The translations under genes were made by a program, and so were the position numbers. This document shows positions 32,861-58,237 of a stretch of DNA of 64,000 bases, piece by piece. A model generated the notes under the pieces. That model was not told the origin of the DNA. It made no database searches and saw only the letters and a program-made list of their open reading frames with translations. The stretch lies in NCBI RefSeq assembly GCF_024298765.1, contig NZ_CP101210.1; one strand, given 5' to 3'. How positions within the stretch are numbered: the stretch's first letter is position 1; each line of letters starts with the position of its first letter. This DNA is from Escherichia coli. Lineage in GTDB: Bacteria > Pseudomonadota > Gammaproteobacteria > Enterobacterales > Enterobacteriaceae.

Positions 32861-32875
32861 TGTGCTTCTCTCCAT

Positions 32876-34271: not shown

Positions 34272-34361
34272 GATTTGCTCCTTATGAATGAGTTAGCGAT
34301 ATAAATGAAAAAGCCGCGCCTCCCGGAGAAGACGCGGCCTGATGGATGAAATGAATGACGT

Positions 34362-34571
34362 TTATTGTCTGAGAAGCCCTTCACTGGCGAGCCACACATT
34401 AAGCTGTTTTCCGGCATCGGATTCAAAATTCCAGTACCGCCAGCGCAACTGACCTTCAGCATTACGGATAACCAGCCGGAAATGCGTTCCCTGGTCATCT
34501 TCAATAAGCACATTGCGGTAAGCTGTTGTGACGGCAACCGCCTGTTCGCGTGAGAAAGGGCCTTCGGGCAA
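34362..34571 (-). CDS. Small DUF905-like protein
   Basis: 69 aa [49 protein letters not shown]... Confidence 0.45.
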
Positions 34572-34600
34572 TTAAACAGGGTGACAGTCCGACATACCGG

Positions 34601-35278: not shown

Positions 35279-35425
35279 GACTGACCTCTGAAATGAACGT
35301 ACGGTGTTATTGATAATGATGGAAGGTATGCAGTGACTGTTCAGGGAATGACGTAGCCGTATATTTAGTTTTCTGTTCAACATATTGTCTCCATACCTGT
35401 CGGGACGGCTTTGGCAGGCCGGCGA

Positions 35426-36106: not shown

Positions 36107-36308
36107 AGATGTGCACTCCGTAAGAAAACATCTTTTATTTCATGATGTTATTATGCATCATGATGTTGAAAGGATGTGTCGCATCCGAATAATCAGAAAT
36201 AAAATGCAGCAGAAAAAATATTCCTTTAATTATCTGATTTTTAAGCAGGGTTTCATAAAAAGAAGAATGCTTGTTAATCCAGCGACACATCCTGTCGGCG
36301 TGAGTGTG

Positions 36309-37193
36309 TCAGAACAGACGATCCCACAGTGTGACCAGCAAGTGGATAATGCGGTCCCGGGCCTTACGCAGAAGCTGTAACATCCAGGCCGGAAAGCTGA
36401 ATTGGGCAACGGCAGCGTCAAAGCTTTTCCCGATGGCGTCACCAAAAGTTTGTTGTGCGTGTTTCCGGGCCTGTTCAGAGCGGTTTTCCCCCCGGATATG
36501 TGAATAAACTGCGCTGGTTGCCTGTGGTGGCAGTGCGTGGATCATCAGCGACACCAGTGCCGGAAGATTCCAGCCGACAGGTGCGGCAACGGAGAGTACC
36601 GGAAATGATGACGGGAACAGGGGTGCCACCCGGGCTGTTACTGTCGCCAGTGAGAGTTCCTGCTGACGGGACGGGCATTTTTCTGTGTCGTTCCATTCTT
36701 CAGCAGGAAACACGCGATCGGCATGGCTGAGAACAAACAGAAAACGCGAGGGATCTGCACCTTCATTCAGTAAAAACTGATGCATGGCAATATCAGCAGC
36801 ATACGCACGTTCATCAGCCCGCAGGATCCAGATAATCAGATCCAGTTCCGGCAGTAACTGACGGTAAAGCTCCCGGTATTCCTGATCATGCTGCGGTGTC
36901 TCACCAATGCCGGGCATATCGACCAGCGTCATTCTGCGTTCACCGAGCTGCAGGGTAAGACGATGAGCCTGGCGGGTGCAGCCGTTCAGGGGATGCGTGG
37001 CGCAGATACGGGACTGAAAAATGGCATTACACAGACTGCTTTTGCCGGTGCCGGATTTACCCATAATGCCAATTACGGGCTCGTAATGAATAACACCGTG
37101 GAGATGTTCAAGGATTTTCTGGCGAATTTCTTCAGGAAGAAACGTCAGATATGATTTTACTTGTGCAGAGAGGGAAGAATGGCTGAATGACAT
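36309..37193 (-). CDS. GTP-binding protein (YfjP/YkfA/YeeP family)
   Basis: G1 motif GIMGKSGTGKSS, G3-like DMPGIGE; 294 aa. Confidence 0.8.
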   Translation of the reverse strand: MSFSHSSLSAQVKSYLTFLPEEIRQKILEHLHGVIHYEPVIGIMGKSGTGKSSLCNAIFQSRICATHPLNGCTRQAHRLTLQLGERRMTLVDMPGIGETPQHDQEYRELYRQLLPELDLIIWILRADERAYAADIAMHQFLLNEGADPSRFLFVLSHADRVFPAEEWNDTEKCPSRQQELSLATVTARVAPLFPSSFPVLSVAAPVGWNLPALVSLMIHALPPQATSAVYSHIRGENRSEQARKHAQQTFGDAIGKSFDAAVAQFSFPAWMLQLLRKARDRIIHLLVTLWDRLF

Positions 37194-37377
37194 ACCGGTA
37201 TCCTGTTGATTTCGCTGAACCGGATCACACTAATCCGGTTTATCATTCAGGTAATATGGACGTGAAAAATGATGGAATGTCTGAATTACGGACATGATTG
37301 TTAAAGTGTAATGGAGTATGAAGTGAGTTTTTCCGAACGGGAACTAATGACATACTGCGGTTTCAGGAGATGAGAGG

Positions 37378-38508
37378 ATGACCGGACGTAAAAACAAATG
37401 TGTCAGAAAAAATTGTAACAATCAGGTTTTCTCAGTAAAAATGGCAGTGGAGAAAAGACTGTGCAGAAAACATTATGAGAGGTTTTGTGAGCTCAAAAAA
37501 AGAAGAGAGCAAAATCCTGTTCACAGATTAAATGAAGCATTGCCAAGAAAGATAAAAGGACCAAAAAGTAAGAAAAAATTAGTAAAAGAAAGAGAAATCA
37601 TTAACAGCAGAAAAAAACATAAACAGGAGCAGGGACCATCGCTGACTGAACTTAATAAAAAAGTTCGTGAGATACTGAAAACTCCTGCATGGAGAACGCT
37701 GGAAACGAGAATTCGAAGAAACGGAATCACATTTAACTCAAAAGCAGAGTTAGATGCGCTTTCTGAACTTTATGCAATTTATTCATGGGTTTCATATTGC
37801 AAACGGGGCGATAATTATTCTGTGTGGTTTTTGAATTGTCCGGATGTAAATATAAACCTTCATGTGTGCGAATGCCGGTCTTCTGAAAGCGATTGTTATC
37901 TGCCATCTCGTTTTATTATTCTTCCAGCTCCATTAAGGCAAAAAGTAAAAAGAAAATACTCGGCTAATTCGTCTGGGGTACCAGGACATAATGATTCAAA
38001 AAGTCTTTATAAGACAGTTTTGTCTGTTTGTGGTGGGAAAAGAGAAACCGAAATGTTCTTTTATTCATTGCCAGTAAAGACTAATCATCATCCTTACTGG
38101 ATTAAAAGTGGTGTGGTTAAAAGATTCCCTCCTGTTTTTGGTTTGTTGTTTTATGAACAGGAAAGATTAACAGGAGGTGTTTTTCGTTATGTGTTGATAA
38201 GATTTTATAATACTTTTAAAGAGAATTTGTTTTTTGTTGAGATTGTATCGTGCTGTTTTCTTGTTGAGCTTTTTCATGATATTGATTCATTTTTTATAAA
38301 TCAACGATTAAGTAAGCTGGAAAGTTTTATAGATAAGTGGAGGGAGGGTAAAGAAATCTGGATAAAAGTATATTTACAACTGATACATACTATATTGGGA
38401 ATAACTGAAACAGAAAAACTCGTCAATCTATATAATTCATTTTTTACTGATAAAGTGGTTCTCTGGGATGAATCAGTAAAAAAAGTTAAGTGGATTTATG
38501 AGAAATAG
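37378..38508 (+). CDS. Hypothetical Lys-rich protein with Cys-rich N-terminus (orphan)
   Basis: 376-aa ORF, strongly AT-rich by eye; N-terminus CVRKNCNNQ...CRKHYERFC; no recognisable homolog. Confidence 0.45.
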   Translation: MTGRKNKCVRKNCNNQVFSVKMAVEKRLCRKHYERFCELKKRREQNPVHRLNEALPRKIKGPKSKKKLVKEREIINSRKKHKQEQGPSLTELNKKVREILKTPAWRTLETRIRRNGITFNSKAELDALSELYAIYSWVSYCKRGDNYSVWFLNCPDVNINLHVCECRSSESDCYLPSRFIILPAPLRQKVKRKYSANSSGVPGHNDSKSLYKTVLSVCGGKRETEMFFYSLPVKTNHHPYWIKSGVVKRFPPVFGLLFYEQERLTGGVFRYVLIRFYNTFKENLFFVEIVSCCFLVELFHDIDSFFINQRLSKLESFIDKWREGKEIWIKVYLQLIHTILGITETEKLVNLYNSFFTDKVVLWDESVKKVKWIYEK

Positions 38509-40013
38509 TACCATTTAACTGAAAGCCACCATAACGTCTTTTTGACTACATTTATGATAATGCGTCTCATTTTGTTTTCGTTTTTTTGTTCAGGGAAATT
38601 TTCCGAACATCAGTGATAATGAGGGTTTTGTTGTTTTTGTTTCTGCAATGTTTGAGGACTGTTCCTGGAGACGATTCGTTGCTTGTGAGCAAGAGGTGGT
38701 CCGCTTTACTGGACAAGTTTTGCATTTGTTGAGTGGTGAAATGGAAGTAAAAAGAGCCCCTTTCTGGCAATGGTTGAAAAAGTCAGTAGCGTGTGACAGT
38801 AAAAGCTAACATAAAGTGATTATCGTATGATTATGACAATGACTTATAACTTTTATGAAAAGAACAACAGAAACTACGAAGCCATAGCAGATTCCTGAGA
38901 CCATGTTTTCTGAGGTAGAGAAAATAATTCCAGAGTAAATCTGTTCTGTTTTTAGGACAGAAAACTCCATGCTGGCTGTAAAAGTGAAAAATTAACACCC
39001 AGTATGTATGGAAGTCTGAAGATGTTGAGAATGTCGGTATGATACTATATACACATATTTTACTAAGTATTTTTACTAAGCATTTCAGTAAGTGTTATAC
39101 ACGTATTTTCATAAACACTTCTACAATTGTTTTCGTTAAGCATTGCTATACACATCCAGTTTAGTAAATCTTTACGTTAACTAAATCAGTTTAATGCTGC
39201 TGTAAAACCTTTCTGCTTCAGCAATCAATCTGCTATTCGATTTTACTGATGTTACGTTTAACCTTTCCTGAGATTTCGAGTTTCGACGTTAGCATGAGAA
39301 AAGTATCTTTACGCTAAATCAACCCGAACTTTCCTGAAGTAATCTGACGTTCTTTTCGATGTGCTTACAACGATTCTGTTAAATGACTTTCTGGATGTTT
39401 TGATAACAATCAGATTTAGGCATTAACGATTCCTGACGTTTTTCTTTTCCGTGTAAGGTCATTGTTTTCGTCATGAGGTTTCTTCTTGCATTGCGAAAGT
39501 GTGATGAACGGTTTTGGTGTTTTGATTCAGATGAAGTTTACGTTATCGATGGTTAATCGTTTTTATGGTGCGTAGTGAAACGTAACGCTTTCAGGAAGGG
39601 AAAATCGATTCTGATGGGGATGATCGTGTAACGGCGTTATCTGTAAACAGGTTTTAAACATGTCATTCGCATCCGTGATTGAGTTGTGTGATTAAGCTGT
39701 AGGTTTTGGGGTTGTTGTTGATTTGCATTACCAGGAAGCGTTCTGGTTGCGTTTCTGGTGTTTTGTTTGAATGTTCTGTGGATCCTTTTCCCTTCTGACT
39801 TTTCTCGTTGTCTATGTCGTTTTTAAATCCATTCGCTGTTCTTGAGTGTTTTTACCCTGTGTGTAGAATTATCTTTTCGTTCCGGGATGGTTTGTTCCGT
39901 TTCAATCACTCTTAATCAGAAAGTTGTAGCATTGCTCAATGCCGGATGCCGTAAAGTTTTACCGCGGTGATTAATGATGTGAAGTCAATCCAAATCAACG
40001 GAGATCTCTCATC

Positions 40014-41809: not shown

Positions 41810-42072
41810 GCAAGCACCTTAAAATCACCATCATACACTAAATCAGTAAGTTGGCACCATTACCTGACCAAGCTTCCTCTATTGCGGCACCTGATTGCAT
41901 CAATATCGAAAGTGATAAGATCCTCTCACTAGCAGGGCATGACAAGTGTAACTGCTGATTTGTTAGCCTGTTTTAAGTTTTTTAAGATCAATTATTTCTC
42001 ATTTTTTGACTTTATTGCTAGCCGTGAAAATGCAAAGCCTATAGGATACAAAAATTACAATTTGTAGGTTTT

Positions 42073-42579
42073 GTGAGTCATATGAAGGCAACCAATATAG
42101 ACCCTCAACTGCTTGAAAAAGCCACGAGTATCTTTGCTGAGTTGGGCTTACCTATTGAGCAGGCTATTAACGTCTTTTTAGCTAAATCCGTTCAAGCCAA
42201 AGGTTTTCCGTTTTCTGTTGCTCTTGAAAATGAAGTAGAGACACGGGAAGTTGCACAAACGCAACACAATATCAGCAATGCAGAGATAACCGAAGCTATC
42301 CAAGACTTGGTTGAACATGCTCTACCACTGAGTGAAATAGAAAACCTCACGCAGCTAACCTATTGTCGCAACATTTTTGGGTTGTCATTCCCCGTGCTCA
42401 AACTGGCTAAATCATCACGGCCAGAAGACATTCGCAGTGCAGCCAAAGATGCCAAAGAGCGAAACCGCTACTCCACCACTAAAGTGGCCCAGCGAGATGA
42501 AAAAACCTATGTTATTTGCACCCAATGGACCGACAGACATCGTTCTGCATTTTGCCGTTGGCAAGCCATCTTTAGCTAG
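42073..42579 (+). CDS. RelB/DinJ-like antitoxin-domain protein with C-terminal extension
   Basis: N-terminus MKATNIDPQLLEKATSIFAELGLPIEQAINVFLAKSVQAKGFPF resembles DinJ/RelB RHH antitoxins; ~90-aa C-terminal extension unrecognised; no adjacent toxin ORF. Confidence 0.5.
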   Translation: MSHMKATNIDPQLLEKATSIFAELGLPIEQAINVFLAKSVQAKGFPFSVALENEVETREVAQTQHNISNAEITEAIQDLVEHALPLSEIENLTQLTYCRNIFGLSFPVLKLAKSSRPEDIRSAAKDAKERNRYSTTKVAQRDEKTYVICTQWTDRHRSAFCRWQAIFS

Positions 42580-42645
42580 AACGCAAAATAATAACCAAAC
42601 AATACACTGATTTTTTAACGATTTAACTTCATTTAGGTAGTATCA

Positions 42646-44625
42646 ATGAACTTACAAGACAAAGAACAAAGCGCCAAACTCTCCAGTGCTATTTGGCGTA
42701 TGGCAGATGATTTATGGGGTGATTTCAAACACACCGATTTTGCGCGGATTATCCTGCCATTTTTGCTACTGCGTCGTATTGAATGCGTGTTAGAACCCAC
42801 CCGTGAGGAAGTTCGTAAGTTCTATCTGGCCGAAAAACAATCCGGCATAGACCTTGGTTTAGTGTTGCCAGAAATTGCGGGATTCGCCTTTTACAACACC
42901 AGTGAATATAGCCTAGAAACCTTAGGCGCGTCAGACACCGGCGACAACCTAGAACACTACATCAGCCAGTTCAGCAAAAACGTTCGTACCATCTTTGATG
43001 AGTTTAAATTTGGTCAAACCATAGAAGATCTGGAAAAAGCCAAGTTGCTGTATCGCATGGTAAACCATTTTGCCAACCTCGACTTGCATCCTGATGTAGT
43101 GTCTGACCGCGTATTATCAGATGCTTATGAAGAGCTGATTCTAAAGTTCGCCAGTTCGGTTAATGAAAAGGCCGGGGAATTTATGACCCCGCGTGATGCC
43201 GTGCGTCTTGCCACCAAACTGGTGCTGGCGGCGGATGAAGATATCTTTAGTGAAAAGGGTGTGATCCGCACCATCTATGACCCAACCTGTGGCACGGGCG
43301 GTTTCCTTTCCGATGCCATTAGCCAAATTGAAGAAATGGGCAGCAGCGCTAAAGTCGTGCCTTTTGGTCAAGAGCTCGACCCCGCGACCCATGCCATGGC
43401 GCTGACCAATATGATGATCCGCGGTTTTGATGCCAATAACATCAAGCAAGGCAACACCTTATCAGACGATCAGTTACGTGCCGACAAGTTTCACTACGGC
43501 CTTGCCAACCCGCCATTTGGCATTAAGTGGGAAAAAGCCAAGAAAGAAGTAGAACGTGAGCACAAACAGCTCAAATACGCCGGACGCTTTGGGCCAGGCC
43601 TGCCGAGTATTTCTGATGGTTCAATGCTGTTTTTACTGCACTTGGTATCAAAAATGGAAACGCCGGAAAATGGTGGTGGCCGAGTGGGTATAGTCCTTTC
43701 TGGCTCGCCACTGTTTAATGGCGATGCAGGCTCAGGCCCATCAGAAATCCGCCGTTGGCTGCTAGAACAAGACTTAGTCGAAGCGATTGTTGCCCTGCCA
43801 ACCGATATGTTCTTCAACACCGGCATTGGCACCTACATCTGGATTTTGACTAACCATAAAGAGCCAAGACGCAAGAATCAGGTGCAACTGATTAACTTGG
43901 CAGATATTTGGACTCCCATGCGTAAATCGCAAGGCGATAAGCGCAAGTACCTGAGTGATGAACAGATTGACGATATTGTCCGTGCGTACGATGGCTTTGA
44001 AGCCAGTGACAACTGTAAGATCTTCCAGACTACTGATTTTGCCTACCGTAAAGTCACCATTCAGCGTCCACTGCGTGCCAAACTAGATATTACCGCTGCG
44101 GGCATTGCTGCATTTGTGCAGCAAGATACGTTTAAAAAACTCAAACCAGAGCAACAAGCGGCATGGGTACAATACCTCACCGATAACCTTGGCCTTCAGC
44201 CTTATGAATGGGCACGTTTGGCGGTTAAGAAGAATAACAATAAGGGTGACTTTGGTAAGTGCTCAAAAGCACTGGCTACGGCCTTAACTGCGCACTTTGT
44301 AAAAATTGATCCGCAATTTGAGCCTGCACTGGATGAAAAAGGCCAAGTGATCGCCGACCCTAAACTCAAAGACACCGAAAGCATTCCTTTTGACCGCGAC
44401 GTTGAAGATTACTTCGCACAAGAGGTGCTGCCACATGTACCGGATGCCTTTATTGATCACTCAGTGCGTGATGAAAAAGACGGCGAAGTGGGCATTGTCG
44501 GTTATGAAATTAACTTTAACCGCTATTTCTACCAATACGTGCCACCACGCGAGTTGAGTGTGATTGATCGTGAGCTAAAAGCATGTGAAGCGCGCATTCA
44601 GGCTCTGCTGAATGAGGTGGCGTAA
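42646..44625 (+). CDS. hsdM: Type I restriction-modification system, DNA methyltransferase subunit
   Basis: AdoMet motif DPTCGTGGFL and catalytic NPPF (GLANPPFGIKWEK); 659 aa. Confidence 0.9.
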   Translation: MNLQDKEQSAKLSSAIWRMADDLWGDFKHTDFARIILPFLLLRRIECVLEPTREEVRKFYLAEKQSGIDLGLVLPEIAGFAFYNTSEYSLETLGASDTGDNLEHYISQFSKNVRTIFDEFKFGQTIEDLEKAKLLYRMVNHFANLDLHPDVVSDRVLSDAYEELILKFASSVNEKAGEFMTPRDAVRLATKLVLAADEDIFSEKGVIRTIYDPTCGTGGFLSDAISQIEEMGSSAKVVPFGQELDPATHAMALTNMMIRGFDANNIKQGNTLSDDQLRADKFHYGLANPPFGIKWEKAKKEVEREHKQLKYAGRFGPGLPSISDGSMLFLLHLVSKMETPENGGGRVGIVLSGSPLFNGDAGSGPSEIRRWLLEQDLVEAIVALPTDMFFNTGIGTYIWILTNHKEPRRKNQVQLINLADIWTPMRKSQGDKRKYLSDEQIDDIVRAYDGFEASDNCKIFQTTDFAYRKVTIQRPLRAKLDITAAGIAAFVQQDTFKKLKPEQQAAWVQYLTDNLGLQPYEWARLAVKKNNNKGDFGKCSKALATALTAHFVKIDPQFEPALDEKGQVIADPKLKDTESIPFDRDVEDYFAQEVLPHVPDAFIDHSVRDEKDGEVGIVGYEINFNRYFYQYVPPRELSVIDRELKACEARIQALLNEVA

Positions 44626-45911
44626 TGAATGCTGGCAACATAGTAGATGCTTTCGTATCTGACTCGAAATGGAACTCAGTACCAGCTAAACGTTTATTTA
44701 CGAGTAGCAAAGAAATCAATCAAGGAATGAAAGAATCTAATCGTCTTGCACTAACAATGAAAGGTGTCATAAACCGCTCGTTAGACGATTTACAAGGACT
44801 TCAATCTTCTGATTACTCTGTTTATCAGATTTTTGAAAAAGATGACTTAGTTTTTAAGCTCATAGATCTTGAAAATATAAAGACTAGCCGAGTGGGGATT
44901 GTGCATGAACGAGGAATAATGAGCCCTGCATACATCCGTGTTTCAGCGAGTTCAAATAGCATCTACCCAAGGTTCTATTACTGGTACTTTTTTGCTCTAT
45001 ACCTAACCAATATTTATAACAAACTGGGTGGAGGAGTTCGTCAGAACCTAACAGCTGGTGATCTTTTAGAAATACCTGTTCCACTGATTGATATTTCATT
45101 ACAGAAGCAGGTTAGCACATTCCTTGATCGCGAAACCCAGCGCATCGACAGTCTGATCGAGGAAAAGCAGACCTTTATTAAGCTGCTCAAAGAAAAACGC
45201 CAAGCACTGATCAGCCATGTGGTCACAAAGGGGCTCTATCCCAATGTGGAGATGCAGGACTCTGGCATCGAGTGGATTGGGCAAGTGCCGAAGCATTGGG
45301 AAGTCAAAAAGATAAAGCATATTTGCTCCAACTTTATGTATGGAACCTCTCAAGACTGTAACCAGTCTGATGTTGGCTATCCTGTTCTCAGGATACCAAA
45401 CATCAAGAGTACCAATGTTGATTTTGAAGATCTCAAATATGCAAATATCAGTGATGTTGATGCTTTAACTTATCTTTTATCAAGAGGCGACATTTTAGTC
45501 ATCAGAACTAACGGTAACCCTAATCTGGTCGGCCAAAGCGCGCTTTTTGATTCAAATGGGCAGTATTTATTTGCGTCGTACCTAATAAAGTTAACACCAA
45601 AGCAAGGAGTGGATACTAGCTTCTTAGTGGAAGCGATGAACTCACTATCTGTTCGTCAAGCATTAACATTTCAGTCAAGAACATCGGTAGGTAACTACAA
45701 CCTGAGCATTCCTTCACTAGCTAATACAAGTATTGCTATCCCACCAATTGATGAGCAAAAGACAATAACGAATTACTTGAGTGCAGCAACGATAAACATT
45801 GATTTACTGATTCAAGAGACTGATAAATCGATTGATCTTCTAAAAGAACACCGCACATCGCTGATCAACGCGGCTGTCACAGGAAAAATAGACGTCAGGG
45901 AGGCGGTGTAA
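44625..45911 (+). CDS. hsdS: Type I restriction-modification system, specificity subunit
   Basis: 428 aa with two target-recognition domains separated by conserved repeats (LIEEKQTFIKLLKEKRQALISHVVTKGL / LLIQETDKSIDLLKEHRTSLINAAVTGKIDV); start overlaps hsdM stop (TAATG). Confidence 0.85.
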   Translation: MNAGNIVDAFVSDSKWNSVPAKRLFTSSKEINQGMKESNRLALTMKGVINRSLDDLQGLQSSDYSVYQIFEKDDLVFKLIDLENIKTSRVGIVHERGIMSPAYIRVSASSNSIYPRFYYWYFFALYLTNIYNKLGGGVRQNLTAGDLLEIPVPLIDISLQKQVSTFLDRETQRIDSLIEEKQTFIKLLKEKRQALISHVVTKGLYPNVEMQDSGIEWIGQVPKHWEVKKIKHICSNFMYGTSQDCNQSDVGYPVLRIPNIKSTNVDFEDLKYANISDVDALTYLLSRGDILVIRTNGNPNLVGQSALFDSNGQYLFASYLIKLTPKQGVDTSFLVEAMNSLSVRQALTFQSRTSVGNYNLSIPSLANTSIAIPPIDEQKTITNYLSAATINIDLLIQETDKSIDLLKEHRTSLINAAVTGKIDVREAV

Positions 45912-48900
45912 TGGCTGCACATCATGAAGTGCATTTTGAACAATATATTACCGAGCAGTTGGTGAACAATGGCTGGAAAGAAGGCCATTCCTGCCACTAT
46001 GACCAGCAACGCGCCCTTTACCCGCAAGATGTCATGGATTGGGTAAAGGCCACCCAGCCAGATGCCTGGCACAAACTGAATAAACTGCATGGTGTGAATG
46101 CCGAGCAGGTGCTGTTGGAGCGTTTGGAAAAAGCCCTCTCTTCCCACAAAGCTGGCAGTAAAACAGGTGGCACCATTAATGTGCTGCGTAAAGGCTTTAC
46201 CATTGCAGGTTGCGGCACGATTGCCATGGGCCAACGCAAACCCGAAGATGCGCGCAATGAAGAGCGTATAGCCCGTTATGAGCACAACATTTTGCGCGTG
46301 GTGCGCCAACTGAAATATTGCCCGACTCGCGAGTGGGAAATTGACTTGGTGTTCTTTATCAACGGTCTACCCGTTGCCACCGCCGAGCTAAAAACCGATT
46401 TTACCCAGTCGCTAGAATCGGCGATTGCGCAGTACAAAGAGGATCGTCTGCCCGTTGACCCAAAAACCAAGCGTAAAGAGCCGCTGTTAACCTTTAAACG
46501 CGGTGCAGTGGTACATTTTGCCATGTCTGATACAGAAATCGCCATGGCGACCAAACTGGCGGGAGAAAATACCTATTTTCTGCCCTTCAATAAAGGCCAT
46601 GATGGTTCTACCTCTGATTTGCCCGTACACATCAACTTGCCGGGTGAAGATGGAGAGTATCCGGTCAGCTATTTTTGGCAAGAAATTGCCCAAAAAGATA
46701 ATTGGCTACGCATTTTCTACAGCTTTGTGTATGTCGAAACCAAAGAGGTTGCCGATAGCAATGGCAAGGTTGAGCGTAAGGAAACACAGATTTTTCCGCG
46801 TTATCATCAGTTAGCCGCAGTCAACAAGATGATTGATGATGCCCGCCAGAACGGCGCAGGCATGCAGTATCTTTGTGAGCACAGCGCCGGTTCGGGAAAA
46901 ACCTCTACCATAGCCTGGACGGCCCATGATTTGATTCGTTTACGCAGCACCGATGGTAAAGCGGTCTTTAAATCAGTGATCATTGTGACCGACCGCACCG
47001 TGCTGGATTCGCAGTTGCAAGATGCGGTGCAACAGCTGGATCATCAATATGGGGTGATTAAGGCGATTGATCGCGAAAAGAGCAGCGAGTCGAAATCAAA
47101 ACAGCTGACTGAAGCGCTATTGACTGGCACGCCGATCATTGTAGTGACGATTCAAACCTTCCCATATGCGTTAGAAGCGATTCTGACCAATCAATCTTTG
47201 GCACAAAGTAACTTTGCGGTGATCATCGATGAAGCACACACCTCGCAAACAGGCTCTACAGCCAAAGGGTTACGCGCAGCGCTTACTCTAAACCTTAGCC
47301 CTCAAGAGTTGGAGCAAATGAGCATTGAGGACATTCTTACTAAGGTGCAAGAAGCGCGCGCCATGCCCAAGAACGTTTCGCACTTTGCTTTTACGGCAAC
47401 ACCCAAGCACAGCACCAAGATGTTGTTTGGCCGCCCGAAAGACCCTAACCAACCAGTGTCAGATGACAATCTTCCTGAATCGTTCCACCTCTACACCCAA
47501 CGTCAGGCCATTGATGAGGGTTTTATTCTTGATGTGCTGGAGAATTACACCCACTACGATACAGCCTACAAAATTGGTGAGAACAATCTGGATGAGAAGC
47601 GCGTAGACAGCAAACAAGCTCGCCGCGCGTTGGCGCGCTGGATGTCACTGCACCCAACCACGGTCAGCCAAAAAGTCGAATTTATTATTAAGCACTTCAA
47701 GGCCAATATCGCTCACCTACTGGAAGGTGAAGCCAAAGCCATGGTGGTCACATCGGGCAGGCCACAGGCGGTGAAATACAAGCTTGCTTTTGATAAATAC
47801 ATTAAAAAGCATGGTATTGAAGGTATCCAAGCCTTGGTTGCCTTCTCGGGCAAAGTCCCCGGCAAAGATTTGGGTGATGAAGACAGCCAAGACCCGCTAG
47901 AAATTGATTTCGATAAAGAGTACACCGAGTACAACTTAAACCCAGACACGCACGGGGCTGACCTGCGCCATGAGTTTGAGAAAACCGAATATCGCGTCAT
48001 GTTAGTCGCCAACAAGTTCCAAACGGGCTTTAATCAACCAAAACTGGTTGCCATGTATTTGGATAAGAAAATATCCGATGTAGAAGCGGTGCAAACGCTG
48101 TCTCGCCTAAACCGCACCTATCCAGGCAAAGACACAACCTTCGTGATTGATTTTGTTAACGATCCACAAACCATTCTCAATGCGTTCAAAAAGTACGACA
48201 AAGGCGCGCAGCTTAATGAAGTGCAAGATGTGAACGTCATCTATGACATCAAAGATATTTTGGATGAACAGAACATATACAACCATCAAGATTTAGAGTT
48301 GTTTAAGCAAGCGCGTGGTAAATCGATTCTCGGCCAATCACCTGACAAAAAGCCACACGCGCACAAGAAACTGCTAGCTGCCACACAACGCCCTACCGAT
48401 GTGTTCAACGTTAAGCTCAAAGAGCTGGTTGATGCTGCAAACCATTGGGATCAGCAATACAACAAAGCGCACCTTGCGGGTGATGAAAAAGCGGCGAACT
48501 ACGCAGAATCTCAGCGCAGTGATTTCACCAAGCAGCGCGAAGCACTAATGCGTTTTAAGTCAGATTTAGCTCGATTTGTGAAGCACTATAGCTATATGGC
48601 GCAATTGATTGAGTTTGGTGATCCTGAACTGGAAAACTTTGCCGCGTTTGCTCATTTGCTATCACGTCGATTGAAAGGGGTAACACCAGAAAACATCGAT
48701 CTCAGTGCACTGGTACTAGAAAAATTCAAAATCAAATACGACAAAGAGCCGCTTCCAGAAGCGTTTAATCAGGTACTTGAACCTATCCGCCCCAACTATA
48801 ACGACCCTGCGGATCGTGAACAGGCATTTCTTGCCGATATCATTCGCCGCCTAAACGAACTGTTTGGCGATGTCGGCGACGAACCCGGTCGCCGAAACTT

Positions 48901-49147
48901 TGCCAACGGTACTATTACGCGTGTCACCCAAAATCCAATTGTGGTTGAGCAGATAGAAAAGCACGACAAGTCGATTGCCCTCAAAGGCGACTTGCCGCAA
49001 GCGGTGAAGCAAGCCGTTGTGCAGGCTCTGCTGAAAGAAGGTGATATAGCCCGAACGCTACTCAAAGACCCACAAGTTATGGCAAGTTATGTTGAGTTGA
49101 TTTTTGACATGATGAAGCAAGGTGCAGAACAGGCGGCGGTGAAATAA
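45911..49147 (+). CDS. hsdR: Type I restriction-modification system, restriction/helicase subunit
   Basis: 1078 aa; Walker A SAGSGKTST, DEAH box (IIDEAHTSQ); start overlaps hsdS stop (TAATG). Confidence 0.9.
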   Translation: MAAHHEVHFEQYITEQLVNNGWKEGHSCHYDQQRALYPQDVMDWVKATQPDAWHKLNKLHGVNAEQVLLERLEKALSSHKAGSKTGGTINVLRKGFTIAGCGTIAMGQRKPEDARNEERIARYEHNILRVVRQLKYCPTREWEIDLVFFINGLPVATAELKTDFTQSLESAIAQYKEDRLPVDPKTKRKEPLLTFKRGAVVHFAMSDTEIAMATKLAGENTYFLPFNKGHDGSTSDLPVHINLPGEDGEYPVSYFWQEIAQKDNWLRIFYSFVYVETKEVADSNGKVERKETQIFPRYHQLAAVNKMIDDARQNGAGMQYLCEHSAGSGKTSTIAWTAHDLIRLRSTDGKAVFKSVIIVTDRTVLDSQLQDAVQQLDHQYGVIKAIDREKSSESKSKQLTEALLTGTPIIVVTIQTFPYALEAILTNQSLAQSNFAVIIDEAHTSQTGSTAKGLRAALTLNLSPQELEQMSIEDILTKVQEARAMPKNVSHFAFTATPKHSTKMLFGRPKDPNQPVSDDNLPESFHLYTQRQAIDEGFILDVLENYTHYDTAYKIGENNLDEKRVDSKQARRALARWMSLHPTTVSQKVEFIIKHFKANIAHLLEGEAKAMVVTSGRPQAVKYKLAFDKYIKKHGIEGIQALVAFSGKVPGKDLGDEDSQDPLEIDFDKEYTEYNLNPDTHGADLRHEFEKTEYRVMLVANKFQTGFNQPKLVAMYLDKKISDVEAVQTLSRLNRTYPGKDTTFVIDFVNDPQTILNAFKKYDKGAQLNEVQDVNVIYDIKDILDEQNIYNHQDLELFKQARGKSILGQSPDKKPHAHKKLLAATQRPTDVFNVKLKELVDAANHWDQQYNKAHLAGDEKAANYAESQRSDFTKQREALMRFKSDLARFVKHYSYMAQLIEFGDPELENFAAFAHLLSRRLKGVTPENIDLSALVLEKFKIKYDKEPLPEAFNQVLEPIRPNYNDPADREQAFLADIIRRLNELFGDVGDEPGRRNFANGTITRVTQNPIVVEQIEKHDKSIALKGDLPQAVKQAVVQALLKEGDIARTLLKDPQVMASYVELIFDMMKQGAEQAAVK

Positions 49148-49701
49148 TGAATACTGCGTTTCGGGTTTTACTTACGTTCAATGCAACATCACTACTAGTG
49201 ATTATCTTTGCGGTACAAAAAGGGTACTCACTCGGATATTTCTTTGGTGGTTTCGCTTGCTTCGATTGGATAGCAGCACTTCCGAACGCAGTATCATATT
49301 TACTCTATTTTCTTATCCCTGTTTTATCGACTGGATTGAGTATTTGGCTGAGTAAGTATTTGGGTAAAGACGATTTTAAGGCGGGTGAAGTAGCGAGTAT
49401 TGAGCATGCCAATAACAGCTTCCTACCAAGTTATTTGGGTTACTTTTTCGTGGCGTTGAGCATTGGTAACTGGGAGACATTGTGGTTTGTTTATGGCGTT
49501 TTGTTTGTTTTTACTCTCTTATCGCAAGCACTCTACTTTAACCCATTGTTTTTACTGTTTGGTTATGAGTTTTATAACATTACAACCAAAAACGGAACGG
49601 CCATTTTCCTTATTAGCCGAGAGCGCTACAAGAAGCCAGATGACATCGAAATATCATTGGCTTATCGAATCAATAATTACACATTTATCGAGCGAGGATA
49701 A
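49147..49701 (+). CDS. Small polytopic membrane protein (about 4 predicted TM helices), candidate defense component (KwaA-like architecture)
   Basis: 184 aa with hydrophobic segments LLVIIFAV, WIAALPNAVSYLLYFLIPVLSTGLSIWL, YFFVALSIGNW, LWFVYGVLFVFTLLSQALYF; ATG overlaps hsdR stop (TAATG); AT-rich. Confidence 0.55.
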   Translation: MNTAFRVLLTFNATSLLVIIFAVQKGYSLGYFFGGFACFDWIAALPNAVSYLLYFLIPVLSTGLSIWLSKYLGKDDFKAGEVASIEHANNSFLPSYLGYFFVALSIGNWETLWFVYGVLFVFTLLSQALYFNPLFLLFGYEFYNITTKNGTAIFLISRERYKKPDDIEISLAYRINNYTFIERG

Positions 49702-50543
49702 TGATGGACCATGTACTGGCACATATAAAAACTAGAGCAAAAAAACGCATTTTCAAATTGGTTTCTGATCAATCTCTTTTTGATACCGTCACAATCGACT
49801 TAAATGCCTGTATTCCATACAATCCAGACCATAACCTTGACGAAGACTCATGGTTTAAAATTGAAGACTTTAGTCAAAAAGAGTTTTGTATTGAACTGCT
49901 AAAAAAAGACTATGATTCAAAAGACTACGATGACTTAACCAAAGATAACTTCGCCAAGATCGCCTACTTATTTGCAATTCAAGGTAATGATTTTTACTTT
50001 CAAAAAATCACTCCAAGCCTATTCGTAAAACGCAAAACGCTTGTTTTTGGTGAAGCCGCAGAAATTGAGAAGAGCCAAACACGTTTAGTAATAAACGCCT
50101 TACCTGATGCAGTGTACTTCAAAGTGGCCGATACCTTGATATTCAAAAATCTGGCAACGATCTCGAGCATTTTTAAAGGTATCGATGAGTTGTACAAGGA
50201 AGCAACAAAAGAAGAAGTTGAGCAGTTTTTAGATGCACAGTTTATAGAGTTGGGTAATGACTACAACGTAGATAGCGTCTCAAAACCTAATAGAAAACGT
50301 ATTGGCCTTGCTATGGCAACACTTGATGCGATGTCTGCTGACGATAAAGCTAACATGCTTGATTATATCGACGGTTACTGCGGTGAACAGAAGCTGAAAT
50401 TCGATAAAGAAAATCAGAAGTTTGAAATATCTAATGACGATGAGTTGAAGTTACTGCTTTATGGCATTGAACAACGCTTCTATACGACCCCGTTTGGCAA
50501 AGAAAAAAGGCTCGCTAACTCTGTAACCGCTATGGATAAATAA
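49701..50543 (+). CDS. Soluble acidic protein, partner of the membrane protein (KwaB-like position)
   Basis: 280-aa ORF, no TM segment, no recognised catalytic motif; ATG overlaps preceding stop (TAATG), GAGG SD. Confidence 0.55.
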   Translation: MMDHVLAHIKTRAKKRIFKLVSDQSLFDTVTIDLNACIPYNPDHNLDEDSWFKIEDFSQKEFCIELLKKDYDSKDYDDLTKDNFAKIAYLFAIQGNDFYFQKITPSLFVKRKTLVFGEAAEIEKSQTRLVINALPDAVYFKVADTLIFKNLATISSIFKGIDELYKEATKEEVEQFLDAQFIELGNDYNVDSVSKPNRKRIGLAMATLDAMSADDKANMLDYIDGYCGEQKLKFDKENQKFEISNDDELKLLLYGIEQRFYTTPFGKEKRLANSVTAMDK

Positions 50544-50578
50544 TAGCCCATTATCAGTAACATATGAAGGTTGATTCA

Positions 50579-51613
50579 ATGGCCGATAACATCCCACAAG
50601 CTCCTCAAGGTGAGTTTGTTCTTTTCACCAGTGCTGATGGTCAAACCCGCGTTGAGTGTCGTTTTGAGTCTGACACCTTGTGGCTTTCTCAGGCTGCAAT
50701 GGCAGAGCTTTATCAAGTTAGCTCTCAAGCAATCACCCAACACGTAAAAGCTGTCTATTCTGAAGAAGAGCTTGAGCAAATTTCAACTTGTAAGGATTAC
50801 TTACAAGTTCAACTGGAAGGTGGCAGAGAAGTAAAGCGAAGCATTCGTCACTACAGTCTTCCGGTTATTCTTGCAGTAGGATACCGAGTTCGCTCAACAC
50901 GTGGCACCCAGTTCCGCCAATGGGCAACCAGAATGTTGCAAGAATACCTAATCAAAGGATTCGTCATGGATGACGAGCGCCTGAAAAATCCGCCCATTGG
51001 CCATTCTGCTGTGCCAGATTACTTTGATGAAATGCTGGAACGCATTCGTGATATCCGAGCTAGTGAGCGTCGCGTTTATCTGCGAGTCAAAGAAATCTTT
51101 ACCATGGCTGCTGATTACGAGCCATCTAACCAAGAGACCAACCGCTTCTTCCAAACCATTCAGAATAAGCTGCATTATGCTTGTACGCATATGACGGCTG
51201 CTGAGCTTATCGCCAGCCGTGTGGATGCCAGTAAGCCGGATATGGGCTTAACCAGCTATAAAGGCGATGAAGTGCGCAAGACAGACGTTACTGTTGCCAA
51301 GAACTATTTGCGTGAAGACGAAATCAAAGAGCTTAATCGCATCGTCAATATGTGGCTCGACTTTGCTGAAGACCAAGCACTGCGTCGCAAGCAGGTATTT
51401 TTACAGGACTGGGCCGATAAGCTTGACCAGTTCTTGAGTTTTAACGATAGAGATGTATTAAACGGTGCAGGAAAAATCTCCAAGAAAGACGCTGATGACA
51501 AAGCGAAATTGGAGTTTGACCGCTTTGCCCAGCAGCGCCGTCGTTTAAAAGAAGCCGAAGGCGCACGGGCCAATATCGCAGCCCTCAAGGCCATACTAAA
51601 AAAAGATAAATAG
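50579..51613 (+). CDS. rhuM: RhuM-family virulence-associated protein
   Basis: ...RHYSLPVILAVGYRVRSTRGTQFRQWATRMLQEYLIKGFVMDDERL... matches the conserved RhuM core as I recall it. Confidence 0.7.
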   Translation: MADNIPQAPQGEFVLFTSADGQTRVECRFESDTLWLSQAAMAELYQVSSQAITQHVKAVYSEEELEQISTCKDYLQVQLEGGREVKRSIRHYSLPVILAVGYRVRSTRGTQFRQWATRMLQEYLIKGFVMDDERLKNPPIGHSAVPDYFDEMLERIRDIRASERRVYLRVKEIFTMAADYEPSNQETNRFFQTIQNKLHYACTHMTAAELIASRVDASKPDMGLTSYKGDEVRKTDVTVAKNYLREDEIKELNRIVNMWLDFAEDQALRRKQVFLQDWADKLDQFLSFNDRDVLNGAGKISKKDADDKAKLEFDRFAQQRRRLKEAEGARANIAALKAILKKDK

Positions 51614-51670
51614 CCGATATAGTACAGCCCTGATCTCTAATGAGTTGAGGGCTGTGTTGTAAGATCATAA

Positions 51671-52057
51671 CTATAAAGGATTATCCATCTTAAAATCGTC
51701 GATATCGCCTGTCATTTTGAATAGATTGGTGTCATTCCAACGGCACAGTTGTCTAACCCGCATTAGATTTGAGTTGGCTCTGCGGATTATTGAGAAAGCA
51801 TCTTCAACAGCAGTAATCACCGATTTTTCCCAATCTTGTGCTCGGGTAAAGGTGCTTTGTGAATAGCGATAATTGCCCTCACGGGGGAGGTAATGGCTGA
51901 TCACCTGGTATTTGTCAGAATTCTTTTTAGGTTTAAACTCGTTGTAAACCCAGAAAATTTCGAGTTTTTTGTTTCTTTGCCTTACACGACAACCAAAATG
52001 ACCTGGGTAGCCTTCAGAGTTTTTACCTCTATGTGCAACGTTGTTCAGCCAGAACAA
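51671..52057 (-). CDS. Hypothetical protein (possible gene fragment, TTG start)
   Basis: 128-aa ORF with non-ATG start; no homolog recognised; upstream in-frame sequence closed by a stop. Confidence 0.25.
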   Translation of the reverse strand: MFWLNNVAHRGKNSEGYPGHFGCRVRQRNKKLEIFWVYNEFKPKKNSDKYQVISHYLPREGNYRYSQSTFTRAQDWEKSVITAVEDAFSIIRRANSNLMRVRQLCRWNDTNLFKMTGDIDDFKMDNPL

Positions 52058-52399
52058 GTCTGCAATTTTTTGTGCTATGTAGAAGTAGCGGAGCTGTTCT
52101 ATTTCGGTTGATTTATGGGTGTAGTGTAGATATTGCTCTGATATGGTTAAGGAAAAAGCATTGCGTCGTCTTGATTAACATTTGTGCTATTGACAATAAA
52201 GGTTTCCCAAATATTAATTTGTGTTTCTAGTCCTTTAAATGATTTTGAGAAGGCTTCTATGTACTCAGATTGCGGTTGATTTCCCCCATTTAGTGCTGCA
52301 CCAAATGTAGCTATCTATTGTTCTAAAAATGAATGATTTTTGGTCATTACATAATCCTCTGTGTGGTTGATACTGCGTATTTTCATGAAAGGAGATCAC

Positions 52400-54050
52400 T
52401 CAATAACCCCCCTGTGTCAGCATAGTTGTCGCCTCAATTTTTTAAGGAGATAACAATGCCAGGACAACCAATACCAAATGAGCTCAAAGAAAAAGGACTG
52501 ATATGGCTTTTGCCACCATACTGTTGGTCACACCGTCAGATAGCCCGGAAGCTGAAGATCAGTGCCTCAGTTGTATCAAAATGGAGATGTGAGTTAGTGG
52601 AGCAAGGACTTTTACCTGAAAATGAAAAGATTACCTCCGTTGATGTTGAAGACTGGACACCGGAGCGTCGATTCTCAGTTGTTCTTGAGACGGCTACGCT
52701 GTCTGTCACGAACGGTGCAATAGTGGATCACTTTTCATCCGTCGTTGACACTGTCAGAAATGGAGCTTGCCGATTATTGCCGACGCATGGGATTGTTTGT
52801 TGAACAGGTTAAAGAATGGCGGGCTATCTCAATTCAGGCGCATGAAAAAAATTGACGGAAAATATTCGAACAGACAGGGCATTGCGTGACGCAAAAAATA
52901 AGTTACGAGAACTGGAGAAAGAGCTTAAGCGCAAAGATAAAGCTCTGGCGGAAGCTGCGGCCCTGCTTATATTAAGGGAAAAGTTCAATGCCCTCTGGGA
53001 CAACAGCGAGGAAGACTGCCCCCTCTCCTGGAGCGGCATAAAATTATTTCTCTTGTCCGTGAGGCCGTCGCCAACGGCGCCCGGAAAGGTCAGGCTTGTA
53101 GGTGTATCGGTATTTCTATTCGGACACTTCAGCGCTGGACTAATGGCAACATCATCACCACGGACCGAAGATCCGATACTGTAAACAGCTCTCCCCGAAA
53201 TAAGCTGTCAGAAGCGGAAAGATTGCGAATACTGGAGTTGTGCAACTCTCCAGAGTTTGCATCCTTGCCTCCAAATGTGATCGTACCAACTCTGGCAGAC
53301 AGAGGTATTTATATTGCTTCTGAATCAAGTTTTTATCGTGTACTGAAATCAGCCAAGCAGTTGAAGAAACGATCCCGTGAATGCCAGTATAAACTGGCCT
53401 GATGTACTCAGGGCCGTTGCACCGAATCAAGTCTGGAGTTGGGACATCAGCTATTTGCCGTCCTGGGTCAGAGGCCAGCATTTTTACCTCTATATGATCG
53501 TCGATATTTACAGTCGCAAAATTATTGCTGCTGAGGTATTTGCCAGCGAATCTGGAAAACATGCAGCAGAACTACTCCAGCGTGCAGTATGGAATGAAAA
53601 ATGTTCATCCAACAATCTGGTACTCCATTCTGATAACGGTGGTCCCATGCGCAGTGACACGTTGTTGGCGAAAATGTATGCGCTTGGTGTGCTAAGTTCT
53701 TATTCCCGGCCAAGAGTCAGTAATGATAATCCTTACTCAGAATCTTTGTTCCGGACTCTCAAATATTGTCCCTGGTGGCCTGAGAACGGTTTTCGCACTA
53801 TTGATGATGCCAGAGTATGGGTAAACCAGTTTTGTAAACTGGTACAACTTTGAACATAAGCACAGCGGGATCAAATACGTCACGCCAGCCGAGCGTCATC
53901 AAGGTAATGACATGAAAATACTGGCAGCCTGAAAAGCGGTATACCAGCTAGCTCGCGAGCAACATCCTGAACGTTGGGGCAAGTATCTACGTAACTGGAA
54001 CTACATATCAGAAGTCTACCTGAATCCAGAAAAAGAGGCTGCATAACGTA
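52400..54050 (+). mobile_element. Degenerate IS3-family insertion sequence (frameshifted orfA/orfB)
   Basis: OrfA-like HTH segment (52456-52803), leucine-zipper segment in another frame (LRELEKELKRKDKALAEAAALLILREKFNALW), and DDE-domain pieces (VWSWDISYLP...LHSDNGGPMRS...SNDNPYSESLFRTLKY) spread over three frames. Boundaries approximate. Confidence 0.7.
52456..53853 (+). pseudogene. IS3-family transposase orfAB, disrupted by frameshifts
   Basis: Transposase domains recognisable but distributed over three reading frames with internal stops. Confidence 0.65.
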
Positions 54051-54180
54051 ATTTTATTACAAAAAGCGACAACTACCTTGAAAAACACCGCCAAATCATG
54101 ATCGATTCGAATGCCAAACTGCGATCGATTCAGATGCCATTTTGCATGCTGCCAGAGCAATATTCCCCCTGATGGTTGTA

Positions 54181-54855
54181 TCAGAGATGGTATGCCGGTA
54201 CTTTGCGGGTTGTTCCTGTCAGGTTATCGTGCACCTCCACATTCGTTGTCACTACCGGCATTCCGTTCTGTCTTAGTCTCAGGACATCAGCCGCAATACG
54301 CTGACTGCCAGACCAGAACAGGCCGTCCAGCGCAGTCACCAGCAATCCCGCCTCCAGCGCATACTTCAGCCGTTCACGGGGCACTTTCACTTCCCGGGCA
54401 ATCTGCTGATAGGGTGATGATGTATTTTCATTCCCAACCATCCGGCGAATACGGTGAGACAGATGATACCGGAATGTATCCGGCACACCGGAAAGACTGG
54501 CCTTCAGGCTGTACACGCAGCCAAATCGCTTATCGTTGAACACCACATTTTTCTGGCTGATATCCCATTCTTCTCGAAGCGCAGCAATCAGCTGTGGCGT
54601 GCGGGTTAAAAGCAGACGAAAAGGCAGTTCAAAACTGGTGACGTAATCCACATTCAGCAGGGCAATACGCAGCCGTTCTTCTGGTCCGGCCTCTGTCTGC
54701 CGACACTCCTCCAGAACATCCTGCCACTGCTGGCAAAGGCGTGGAGATTCATTCAGTTCTGTAAAACAATATTTATCCGCAAGATAGTCAATTTGTGCAG
54801 GCATACTGAAGAGAATTCCGTATAAAGATTCAGCAGACAAAACTTTATCAGTCAA
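54181..54855 (-). CDS. Hypothetical protein (224 aa)
   Basis: Intact ORF between two IS elements; no motif recognised. Confidence 0.35.
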   Translation of the reverse strand: MTDKVLSAESLYGILFSMPAQIDYLADKYCFTELNESPRLCQQWQDVLEECRQTEAGPEERLRIALLNVDYVTSFELPFRLLLTRTPQLIAALREEWDISQKNVVFNDKRFGCVYSLKASLSGVPDTFRYHLSHRIRRMVGNENTSSPYQQIAREVKVPRERLKYALEAGLLVTALDGLFWSGSQRIAADVLRLRQNGMPVVTTNVEVHDNLTGTTRKVPAYHL

Positions 54856-54986: not shown

Positions 54987-57729
<2,743 letters not shown>

Positions 57730-58237
57730 CGTAAGTAAAATCAGCCACCCACAGCTGGTCAGGTCGTTCTGCCACGAACTGACGGTTTACGCGGTCGCCT
57801 GCGGCAACGGCTTTCCGGCTGATGGTCGTACGGACCTTTTTACCCCGGAGAACACCGGCAAGTCCCATAACCGCCATGAGACGTGCCACTGTACATCTGG
57901 CCACCCTGATTCCTTCCCGTAACAACTGACGCCAGACTTTACGCACACCGTACACCTGATGATTTTCATCGTATACGCGCTGTATCTCTCTCTTCAGCCA
58001 GTCGTCGTGCTGCGCACGGGCACTGCGTTTATCCGGATGATGTCGCTGTTGCTGACAATGGTAATACGTTGACGGGGCAATATGCAGTTCGCTGCATACC
58101 GGTCCGACCCCGTACTGCTCACGCAGCTTATCCAGCAGTGGCATCATTTTTCCAGAGGCGGTCGAACTCCGCCTTCGCAAAATAAGCGGAAGCCTGGCGA
58201 AGGATATCGTTACTGCGGCGCAGTTCACGATTTTCAC
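57730..58237 (-). CDS. IS3 transposase OrfB, 5' exon (upstream of intron)
   Basis: ...[73 protein letters not shown]...[10 protein letters not shown] then intron. Confidence 0.8.

What the first reader, a model, noticed from the sequence alone, without database searches (positions are those of the whole stretch)
51671..52057. 128-aa ORF with TTG start between RhuM and the IS3-family remnant
This is the only ORF of note in a 0.8 kb gap bordering the defense module. It has a non-ATG start and no recognisable domain, so it may be the C-terminal stump of a gene destroyed by the adjacent IS insertion.
Basis: seen in the sequence. Interest (0 to 1): 0.2.

Follow-up and report, generated by a model that had tools for sequence, protein, structure and literature searches.

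The report
Decayed mobI gene from mobilizable island
The 128-codon ORF is the intact-looking tail of a dead mobI gene, which in working form lets IncC plasmids mobilise a genomic island; it was left behind when E. coli kept that island's phage-defence genes, so it is ordinary and already named in RefSeq.

Summary
The ORF is real: window 51671..52057, minus strand, 128 aa, TTG start. It is not domain-less. It matches Pfam MobI (PF19456) at E=4.6e-30, and RefSeq annotates these coordinates as "mobI, conjugative transfer protein MobI(A/C)". It forms codons 98-225 of a 225-codon mobI gene (51671..52347, minus) of the MGIVchHai6 family of IncC-mobilizable genomic islands. All 225 codons are still present. 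The gene carries a -1 frameshift (T6 to T5, 52153-52157), shared by about 75 complete E. coli genomes, and a TAG at codon 11 that differs from strain SMS-3-5. An IS3-family element (52374-54090) starts 26 nt upstream of the original ATG. It has removed the AcaCD-dependent promoter and the oriT that lie there in intact islands. The TTG start is homologous to the "+409 TTG" truncation tested by Rivard et al. 2020, which did not restore mobilization. So the ORF is a pseudogene remnant. It sits at the edge of a 10.5-kb captured island fragment (type I R-M, Kiwa, RhuM) bounded by IS1 and IS3. Low interest, already known.

The parts
51671..52057 (-). The reported 128-aa TTG ORF, which equals codons 98-225 of mobI (C-terminal MobI domain minus its first ~7 residues)
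   Evidence: RefSeq CDS WP_001342709.1 'mobI' lies at these coordinates in strain FY10. The exact protein was seen on >=1000 contigs.
51671..52347 (-). Whole mobI pseudogene: 677 nt, 225 codons minus 1 nt, starting MTKNHSFLEQ with a GAGGA Shine-Dalgarno sequence 8 nt upstream
   Evidence: Three-frame translation. DNA alignments to intact V. cholerae, metagenome and E. coli genes. Protein alignment: 91% identity to P0003, 82.7% to the MobI_M-type P0020, no gaps.
52315..52317 (-). TAG nonsense codon at codon 11 (Gln in all intact homologs compared); a SNP relative to strain SMS-3-5
   Evidence: Window has A and E. coli SMS-3-5 has G at 52317 on the + strand, i.e. TAG versus CAG. Codon read directly. 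In the other listed E. coli genomes RefSeq annotates a hypothetical protein over this stretch; in SMS-3-5 it is 66 aa.
52153..52157 (-). -1 frameshift site: T5 on the coding strand where intact genes have T6 (codons 65-66), followed by TAA at 52147-52149
   Evidence: Alignment columns 270-281 of A1 and codon read-out. SMS-3-5 has the same sequence here. 75 of the 76 matching complete E. coli genomes are >=99% identical.
52348..52373 (-). Last 26 nt of the native mobI leader (includes the SD); homology to intact islands stops here
52374..54090 (+). Degenerate IS3-family element (frameshifted, internal stop) that replaces the AcaCD-box promoter, oriT and the 85-86-xis-int side of the island; no target-site duplication
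   Evidence: Matches to IS3-family copies on plasmids at 96-99% identity. RefSeq annotates a pseudogene. Flanks are ...GATAC / CCAAAT....
51624..51655 (.). Conserved hairpin between the convergent rhuM and mobI genes, a likely shared terminator
   Evidence: MFE -16.5 kcal/mol, z=-2.95. Sequence conserved in the V. cholerae and E. coli 1585m1 islands. The role as terminator is inferred.
41884..52373 (.). 10.5-kb block derived from an MGIVchHai6-family island: RelB/DinJ-like gene, hsdM, hsdS, hsdR, KwaA, KwaB, RhuM, mobI pseudogene. Bounded by IS1 on the left and IS3 on the right.
   Evidence: Near-identical DNA to the intact trmE island of E. coli 1585m1 down to 41884. HsdR matches 1076/1078 residues. 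Same gene order. GC 44.3% versus 52.2% in the core chromosome.

Best explanation
The ORF is the 3' remnant of a mobI pseudogene. In intact islands of the MGIVchHai6 family the order is trmE, int, xis, 86, 85, oriT, mobI, then cargo. There the 225-aa MobI is made from an AcaCD-activated promoter when an IncC or IncA helper plasmid is present. It recognises the oriT that lies just upstream of its own gene, self-associates, and binds the C-terminal MobI-binding domain of the helper's MOBH1 relaxase TraI. The island is then nicked and transferred through the helper's type IV secretion system. In this E. coli lineage only the cargo side of such an island was retained, between an IS1 and an IS3 element. 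The mobI gene lost its promoter and oriT to the IS3 element, then or also acquired a -1 frameshift at codon 65/66. In this strain it also has a stop at codon 11. The 128-codon TTG ORF is simply the longest open stretch left downstream of the frameshift. It most likely makes no functional product. Shown here: the homology, the lesions, the missing oriT and promoter, and the conserved context. Taken from the literature: the MobI mechanism and the inactivity of equivalent truncations. Inferred: no expression and no function here.
For: Domain and homologs:
- Pfam MobI at E=4.6e-30.
- Full-length 225-aa homologs align without gaps to the two window frames joined at the T-run.

Lesions:
- TAG at codon 11 and the T6-to-T5 deletion.

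Context in intact relatives:
- V. cholerae L005 has trmE, int, HTH_17, DUF927, HTH_17, then mobI, convergent RhuM, and type I R-M.
- E. coli 1585m1 L007 has the same layout, with the same RelB/DinJ, hsdMSR and 184-aa plus 280-aa cargo at about 99% identity.

Loss of upstream elements:
- Homology to both relatives ends 26 nt upstream of the ATG, where the IS3 element begins.
- The GCCC-N5-GGGC box (read here as the AcaCD box) and the oriT-core sequence of L005 have no match within 3 mismatches anywhere in the window.
- No SD precedes the TTG, and no sigma-70-like promoter lies upstream on the minus strand.

Published tests (Rivard et al. 2020, PMC7449626):
- MobI_M is 225 aa, starting at ATG118 of ORF 84.
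- Constructs starting at +304 ATG and +409 TTG failed to complement the deletion.
- oriT is a 49-bp core immediately upstream of ORF 84, and the AcaCD promoter lies in the first 117 bp of ORF 84.
- P0020, a 264-aa V. cholerae protein, has V, V, M, M, L at all five published alternative start positions. The window's TTG aligns with its +409 TTG.

Signs of relaxed constraint and lack of a natural start:
- Substitutions at positions invariant in the eight homologs aligned: Q101L, L124Q, P176S. Among the five 225-aa homologs, A52V and P163S are also unique to the window.
- Databases give the same DNA four different N-termini, 157, 143, 131 and 128 aa (ATA, ATA, ATT and TTG codons in the window), showing no natural start.
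Against: - The C-terminal 160 codons remain open.
- That stretch contains nearly the whole Pfam domain, the part shared with the 179-aa IncC MobI, which aligns to residues 92-215.
- The fragment is very widespread: >=1000 contigs and 75 of 5426 complete genomes.
- Expression was not measured. Read-through from the IS3 end cannot be excluded.
- The published truncation tests used a protein only 83% identical to this one. The +409 construct relied on a TTG start and may simply have been poorly translated.
Confidence: 0.88

Rival explanations
1. It is a functional, naturally short MobI, as the RefSeq product name implies. It would be able to assist an incoming IncC or IncA plasmid's relaxase.
For: Intact 128-160-codon open frame holding most of the Pfam MobI domain. 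RefSeq calls it mobI without a pseudogene flag. Wide distribution.
Against: - No canonical start codon covers the whole domain; the domain starts 7 aa before the TTG.
- No SD, and no promoter found.
- The 5' third of the gene is recognisably present but out of frame.
- No oriT in cis.
- Equivalent +304 and +409 truncations were inactive in MGIVchHai6.
- Changes at otherwise invariant residues.
Confidence: 0.05
2. The truncated MobI fragment is expressed and acts as a decoy. It would titrate the TraI MobI-binding domain, or poison MobI multimers, of invading IncC/IncA plasmids. That would be an anti-plasmid function sitting beside the anti-phage genes.
For: MobI self-associates and binds TraI (bioRxiv 10.1101/2025.04.21.649884). 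Over-expression of ORF 84 lowered helper-plasmid transfer about 40-fold and its deletion raised it 12-fold. The fragment lies at the edge of a defence cluster.
Against: No translation signals or promoter. Further decay in this strain is confined to the already dead 5' part and is uninformative. The wide distribution is explained by descent with the linked R-M/Kiwa/RhuM block. No direct evidence at all.
Confidence: 0.03
3. One reading: the IS insertion cut the gene, and the missing N-terminus lies under or beyond the IS.
For: An IS3 element is adjacent.
Against: The complete N-terminal coding sequence (codons 1-97), the ATG and the SD are still present between the ORF and the IS. The IS boundary is 26 nt upstream of the ATG. 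The DNA beyond the IS encodes an unrelated ECs1377-family protein.
Confidence: 0.02

Closest known systems
MobI_M of MGIVchHai6 (V. cholerae; Rivard, Colwell & Burrus 2020, mSphere, PMC7449626)
   Same: Same gene. 225 codons in the same register, 82.7% identity to the ORF-84-type protein P0020 with no gaps. Same convergent RhuM neighbour and a type I R-M cargo. The same internal TTG at codon 98 is the window ORF's start.
   Different: Here the gene is frameshifted, has a premature stop, and lacks the AcaCD promoter, the 49-bp oriT core and the int-xis-86-85 module. It is not at trmE.
Intact trmE-integrated island of E. coli 1585m1 (NZ_CP086391.1), of the same type as the NCTC10962 island listed in Table S1 of Rivard 2020
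   Same: Cargo is about 99% identical in DNA and in the same order: RelB/DinJ, hsdM, hsdS, hsdR, KwaA-like, KwaB-like, RhuM, mobI.
   Different: That island has a complete int-to-oriT side and an intact 194-aa mobI allele with a different N-terminus. RhuM is only 88% identical and mosaic. An IS21 element sits between RhuM and the Kiwa pair.
MobI_C of IncC/IncA plasmids, and MobI of SXT/R391 ICEs (Pfam PF19456)
   Same: Shared C-terminal domain. IncC MobI aligns to residues 92-215 at 27% identity. Role as oriT-recognition adaptor for the MOBH1 relaxase TraI comes from the literature.
   Different: Distant paralogue with a different N-terminal region and a different cognate oriT. The plasmid gene is intact and has its oriT upstream.

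Membership tests
MobI (Pfam PF19456; RefSeq 'conjugative transfer protein MobI(A/C)') | Sequence match to the family profile above the curated threshold | tested here: met
   104.6 bits versus gathering score 26.6, model positions 4-116 of 116. The NCBIfam library held no matching model.
MobI_M type (MGIVchHai6-family island MobI) | Uninterrupted ~225-aa protein including the N-terminal ~97 residues needed for activity | tested here: not met
   All codons are present, but there is a TAG at codon 11 and a -1 frameshift at codon 65/66. Published constructs starting at +304 and +409 were inactive.
MobI_M type (MGIVchHai6-family island MobI) | Cognate oriT immediately upstream of the gene | tested here: not met
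   Homology to intact islands ends 26 nt upstream of the ATG at the IS3 boundary. No match to the oriT-core sequence anywhere in the window.
MobI_M type (MGIVchHai6-family island MobI) | AcaCD-responsive promoter upstream of mobI | tested here: not met
   The GCCC-N5-GGGC box about 75 nt upstream of the ATG in L005 and L007 (read here as the AcaCD box) is absent from the window.
MGIVchHai6-family mobilizable genomic island | int-xis-86-85-ig-mobI module integrated at the 3' end of trmE (or yicC/dusA), flanked by att repeats | tested here: not met
   The block is bounded by IS1 and IS3 inside a composite island next to yicL. No int, xis, 86 or 85 lies adjacent. The cargo side matches intact members.
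MobI (any type) | Required for, or active in, TraI-dependent transfer initiation | not testable with these tools
   Needs mating assays.

The most novel reading that the evidence does not exclude
The C-terminal MobI fragment is still expressed, for example by read-through from the IS3 end. It would act as a dominant-negative decoy against the relaxosome of incoming IncC/IncA plasmids, so a decayed mobilization gene would have been co-opted as an anti-plasmid factor beside the R-M/Kiwa/RhuM cluster.
Probability: 0.03. Interest if true: 0.5.

Novelty: already known. Interest (0 to 1): 0.1.

Why it matters
It matters mainly for annotation. RefSeq labels this ORF as a functional-sounding "conjugative transfer protein MobI(A/C)" in many E. 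coli genomes, with at least four different N-termini. The evidence says it is a pseudogene without an oriT, so these strains should not be scored as carrying an IncC-mobilizable element. It also shows a common evolutionary pattern. A mobilizable island's defence cargo (type I R-M, Kiwa, RhuM) stays intact after capture between IS elements, while its mobility functions decay.

Tried and rejected
- Local BLAST of the window against loci L002-L005 and L007 in the Python sandbox failed because those files were never copied to /data. I used DNA alignment and protein comparison instead.
- NCBIfam gave no MobI hit for the 128-aa protein, only a sub-threshold unrelated hit. PADLOC gave none.
- The promoter scan found no sigma-70-like site on the minus strand upstream of either the TTG or the original ATG. 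The four hits do not exceed shuffled expectation.
- The plasmid DNA search found only the IS3 end, not mobI.
- A crude count of window-specific substitutions (13 non-synonymous to 5 synonymous) is confounded by mosaic recombination among island alleles. I do not use it as evidence.
- Chance ORF: rejected on homology.
- "IS cut the coding region": rejected on the alignment.
- Rivard 2020 and its supplements do not mention this decayed E. coli copy.

Full report
**Observation.**
- The ORF listing returns 51671..52057 on the minus strand, 128 aa, TTG start.
- No other ORF longer than 72 aa lies between the RhuM stop (51613) and the next element.
- The frame is open upstream to a TAA at 52175-52177, and those 39 codons contain no ATG, GTG or TTG.

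**Identity.**
- The extended frame matches Pfam MobI (PF19456) at 104.6 bits, E=4.6e-30, model positions 4-116 of 116. The match starts 7 residues before the TTG.
- A protein search found 18 homologs. Those with complete N-termini are 198-249 aa long at 69-90% identity, from Vibrio cholerae, Photobacterium, Shewanella and metagenomes.
- They begin MTKNHSFLEQQIATFG..., which is the sequence encoded in another minus-strand frame directly upstream of the ORF, from an ATG at 52347.
- DNA alignments to intact genes show that all 225 codons are present in the window. There are two lesions:
  - TAG instead of CAA/CAG at codon 11 (52315-52317).
  - A 1-nt deletion in a T6 run (52153-52157) that shifts the frame at codon 65/66 and runs into TAA at 52147-52149.
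- With these repaired, the protein aligns without gaps to 225-aa homologs. Identity is 91% to P0003 and 82.7% to the V. cholerae ORF-84-type protein P0020.

**Source and distribution.**
- The window is E. coli chromosome and is 100% identical to strain FY10 over the 801-bp query.
- RefSeq annotates exactly 51671..52057 as "mobI, conjugative transfer protein MobI(A/C)" (WP_001342709.1).
- 76 of 5426 complete E. coli genomes carry the locus, always on the chromosome, and 75 are at least 99% identical.
- Strain SMS-3-5 shares the frameshift but has CAG at codon 11. The stop therefore distinguishes FY10 from SMS-3-5; the other listed genomes also differ from the window by about one base in 801.
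- There, RefSeq calls a 66-aa "hypothetical protein" plus a 157-aa mobI.
- The collection holds 157-, 143-, 131- and 128-aa versions of the same sequence. The corresponding window codons are ATA, ATA, ATT and TTG. This spread of N-termini shows that no natural start exists.
- The exact 128-aa protein is recorded on at least 1000 contigs.

**What intact relatives look like.**
- In V. cholerae (L005) the gene sits in this order: trmE, int, a 114-aa HTH_17 gene, a DUF927 gene, a 65-aa HTH_17 gene, an intergenic region, mobI, then convergent RhuM, an AAA_13 gene and type I R-M.
- This is the int-xis-86-85-ig-mobI layout of the MGIVchHai6 family described by Rivard et al. 2020 (PMC7449626).
- E. 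coli 1585m1 (L007) has an intact island of this family at mnmE/trmE. Its cargo is RelB/DinJ, hsdM, hsdS, hsdR, a 184-aa and a 280-aa protein, and RhuM, in the same order as the window.
- That cargo is nearly identical to the window in DNA down to window 41884. HsdR matches 1076/1078 residues.
- RhuM is 88% identical and mosaic.
- Window 41884-52373 is therefore a 10.5-kb fragment of such an island. Its GC is 44.3% against 52.2% in the core chromosome.
- The fragment is bounded by IS1 on the left and an IS3-family element on the right. It lies in a composite island next to yicL, not at trmE.

**What was lost.**
- Homology to L005 and L007 stops 26 nt upstream of the ATG, at 52373. A degenerate IS3-family element runs from 52374 to about 54090.
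- The IS3 flanks show no target-site duplication, and the DNA beyond it encodes an unrelated ECs1377-family protein.
- In intact islands this upstream region holds a GCCC-N5-GGGC box about 75 nt from the ATG, which I read as the AcaCD box, and then the oriT.
- Neither the box nor the oriT-core sequence has a match within 3 mismatches anywhere in the 64-kb window.
- No SD precedes the TTG, and no sigma-70-like promoter was found upstream on the minus strand.
- The native GAGGA SD still precedes the dead ATG.

**Function, from the literature.**
- MobI_M is a 225-aa protein starting at ATG118 of the annotated 795-bp ORF 84, and it is needed for IncC-driven mobilization. Deleting it reduced transfer about 2,700-fold.
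- Constructs starting at +304 ATG and +409 TTG did not complement.
- The minimal oriT is 49 bp immediately upstream of ORF 84. The AcaCD-responsive promoter lies in the first 117 bp of ORF 84.
- P0020, a 264-aa V. cholerae protein, has V, V, M, M, L at all five published alternative start positions. The window's TTG aligns with its +409 TTG.
Two caveats apply: that protein is 83% identical to this one, and a TTG-started construct may have been poorly translated. The longer ATG-started +304 construct also failed, however.
- MobI self-associates and binds the C-terminal MobI-binding domain of the MOBH1 relaxase TraI (bioRxiv 10.1101/2025.04.21.649884).
- The 179-aa IncC MobI aligns only to residues 92-215 at 27% identity. 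The TTG ORF therefore lacks even the first residues of the shared core.

**Signs of relaxed constraint.**
- Q101L, L124Q and P176S are unique to the window at positions invariant in the eight homologs aligned.
- Among the five 225-aa homologs compared, A52V and P163S are also unique to the window.
- A crude count of window-specific non-synonymous versus synonymous changes (13 to 5) is confounded by recombination and is not relied on.

**Conclusion.**
- The finding is a real but ordinary feature: the open 3' part of a mobI pseudogene at the edge of a captured, immobilised fragment of an IncC-mobilizable island.
- The family, its mechanism and even the equivalent truncation are published, and RefSeq already names the ORF.
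- The useful correction is that it should be flagged as a pseudogene without an oriT.
- The only more interesting reading not excluded is that the fragment acts as an expressed decoy against IncC relaxosomes. It has no positive evidence here.

Noticed in passing
window 49147-49701 and 49701-50543 (+): Two overlapping genes that RefSeq calls 'hypothetical protein' match PADLOC KwaA (E=9e-16) and KwaB (E=7e-14). This looks like a Kiwa anti-phage pair placed between hsdR and RhuM. The pair is conserved in the intact trmE island of E. coli 1585m1. Pfam gave no hit, and NCBIfam KwaA was far below its cutoff.
   Followed up: partly
window 41884-52373: The whole defence module (RelB/DinJ-like gene, type I R-M, Kiwa, RhuM) is a fragment of an MGIVchHai6-family mobilizable island trapped between IS1 (right end about 41863) and IS3. 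It is about 99% identical to an intact island at trmE in a gull E. coli isolate.
   Followed up: yes
window 50564-51613 (+): RhuM is mosaic relative to the E. coli 1585m1 copy. The N- and C-terminal parts are essentially identical, but residues ~46-125 are strongly diverged (88% overall), which suggests recombination among island alleles. The mobI allele is likewise closer to Vibrio alleles than to the 1585m1 allele.
   Followed up: partly
window 51671-52347 (-), across public databases: The same DNA is annotated with products of 157, 143, 131 and 128 aa (the corresponding window codons are ATA, ATA, ATT and TTG), and none is flagged as a pseudogene. This is an annotation inconsistency.
   Followed up: yes
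window ~54987-58237 (-): A second IS3-family (IS1203-like) transposase gene is split by a group II intron carrying an ltrA reverse transcriptase/maturase (55550-57073), according to the RefSeq annotation of the identical FY10 sequence.
   Followed up: no
window 42073-42579 (+): A 168-aa RelB/DinJ-family antitoxin-like gene sits directly upstream of hsdM with no obvious toxin partner. It is conserved at the same position in the intact island of E. coli 1585m1.
   Followed up: no
window 54181-54855 (-): An ECs1377-family protein (NCBIfam E=6e-97), of unknown function and with no Pfam domain, sits between the two IS3-family remnants. It is unrelated to the island fragment.
   Followed up: no
window ~26600-39700: A CP4-like island segment (GTPase, YafY, DUF932, antirestriction, RadC, YeeU/CbtA toxin-antitoxin, DUF4942, inovirus Gp2/YagK-YfjJ family) is flanked by IS1 copies next to yicL. 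In FY10 the whole region, with nanXY/ythA further on, looks like a composite of several islands joined at IS elements.
   Followed up: no
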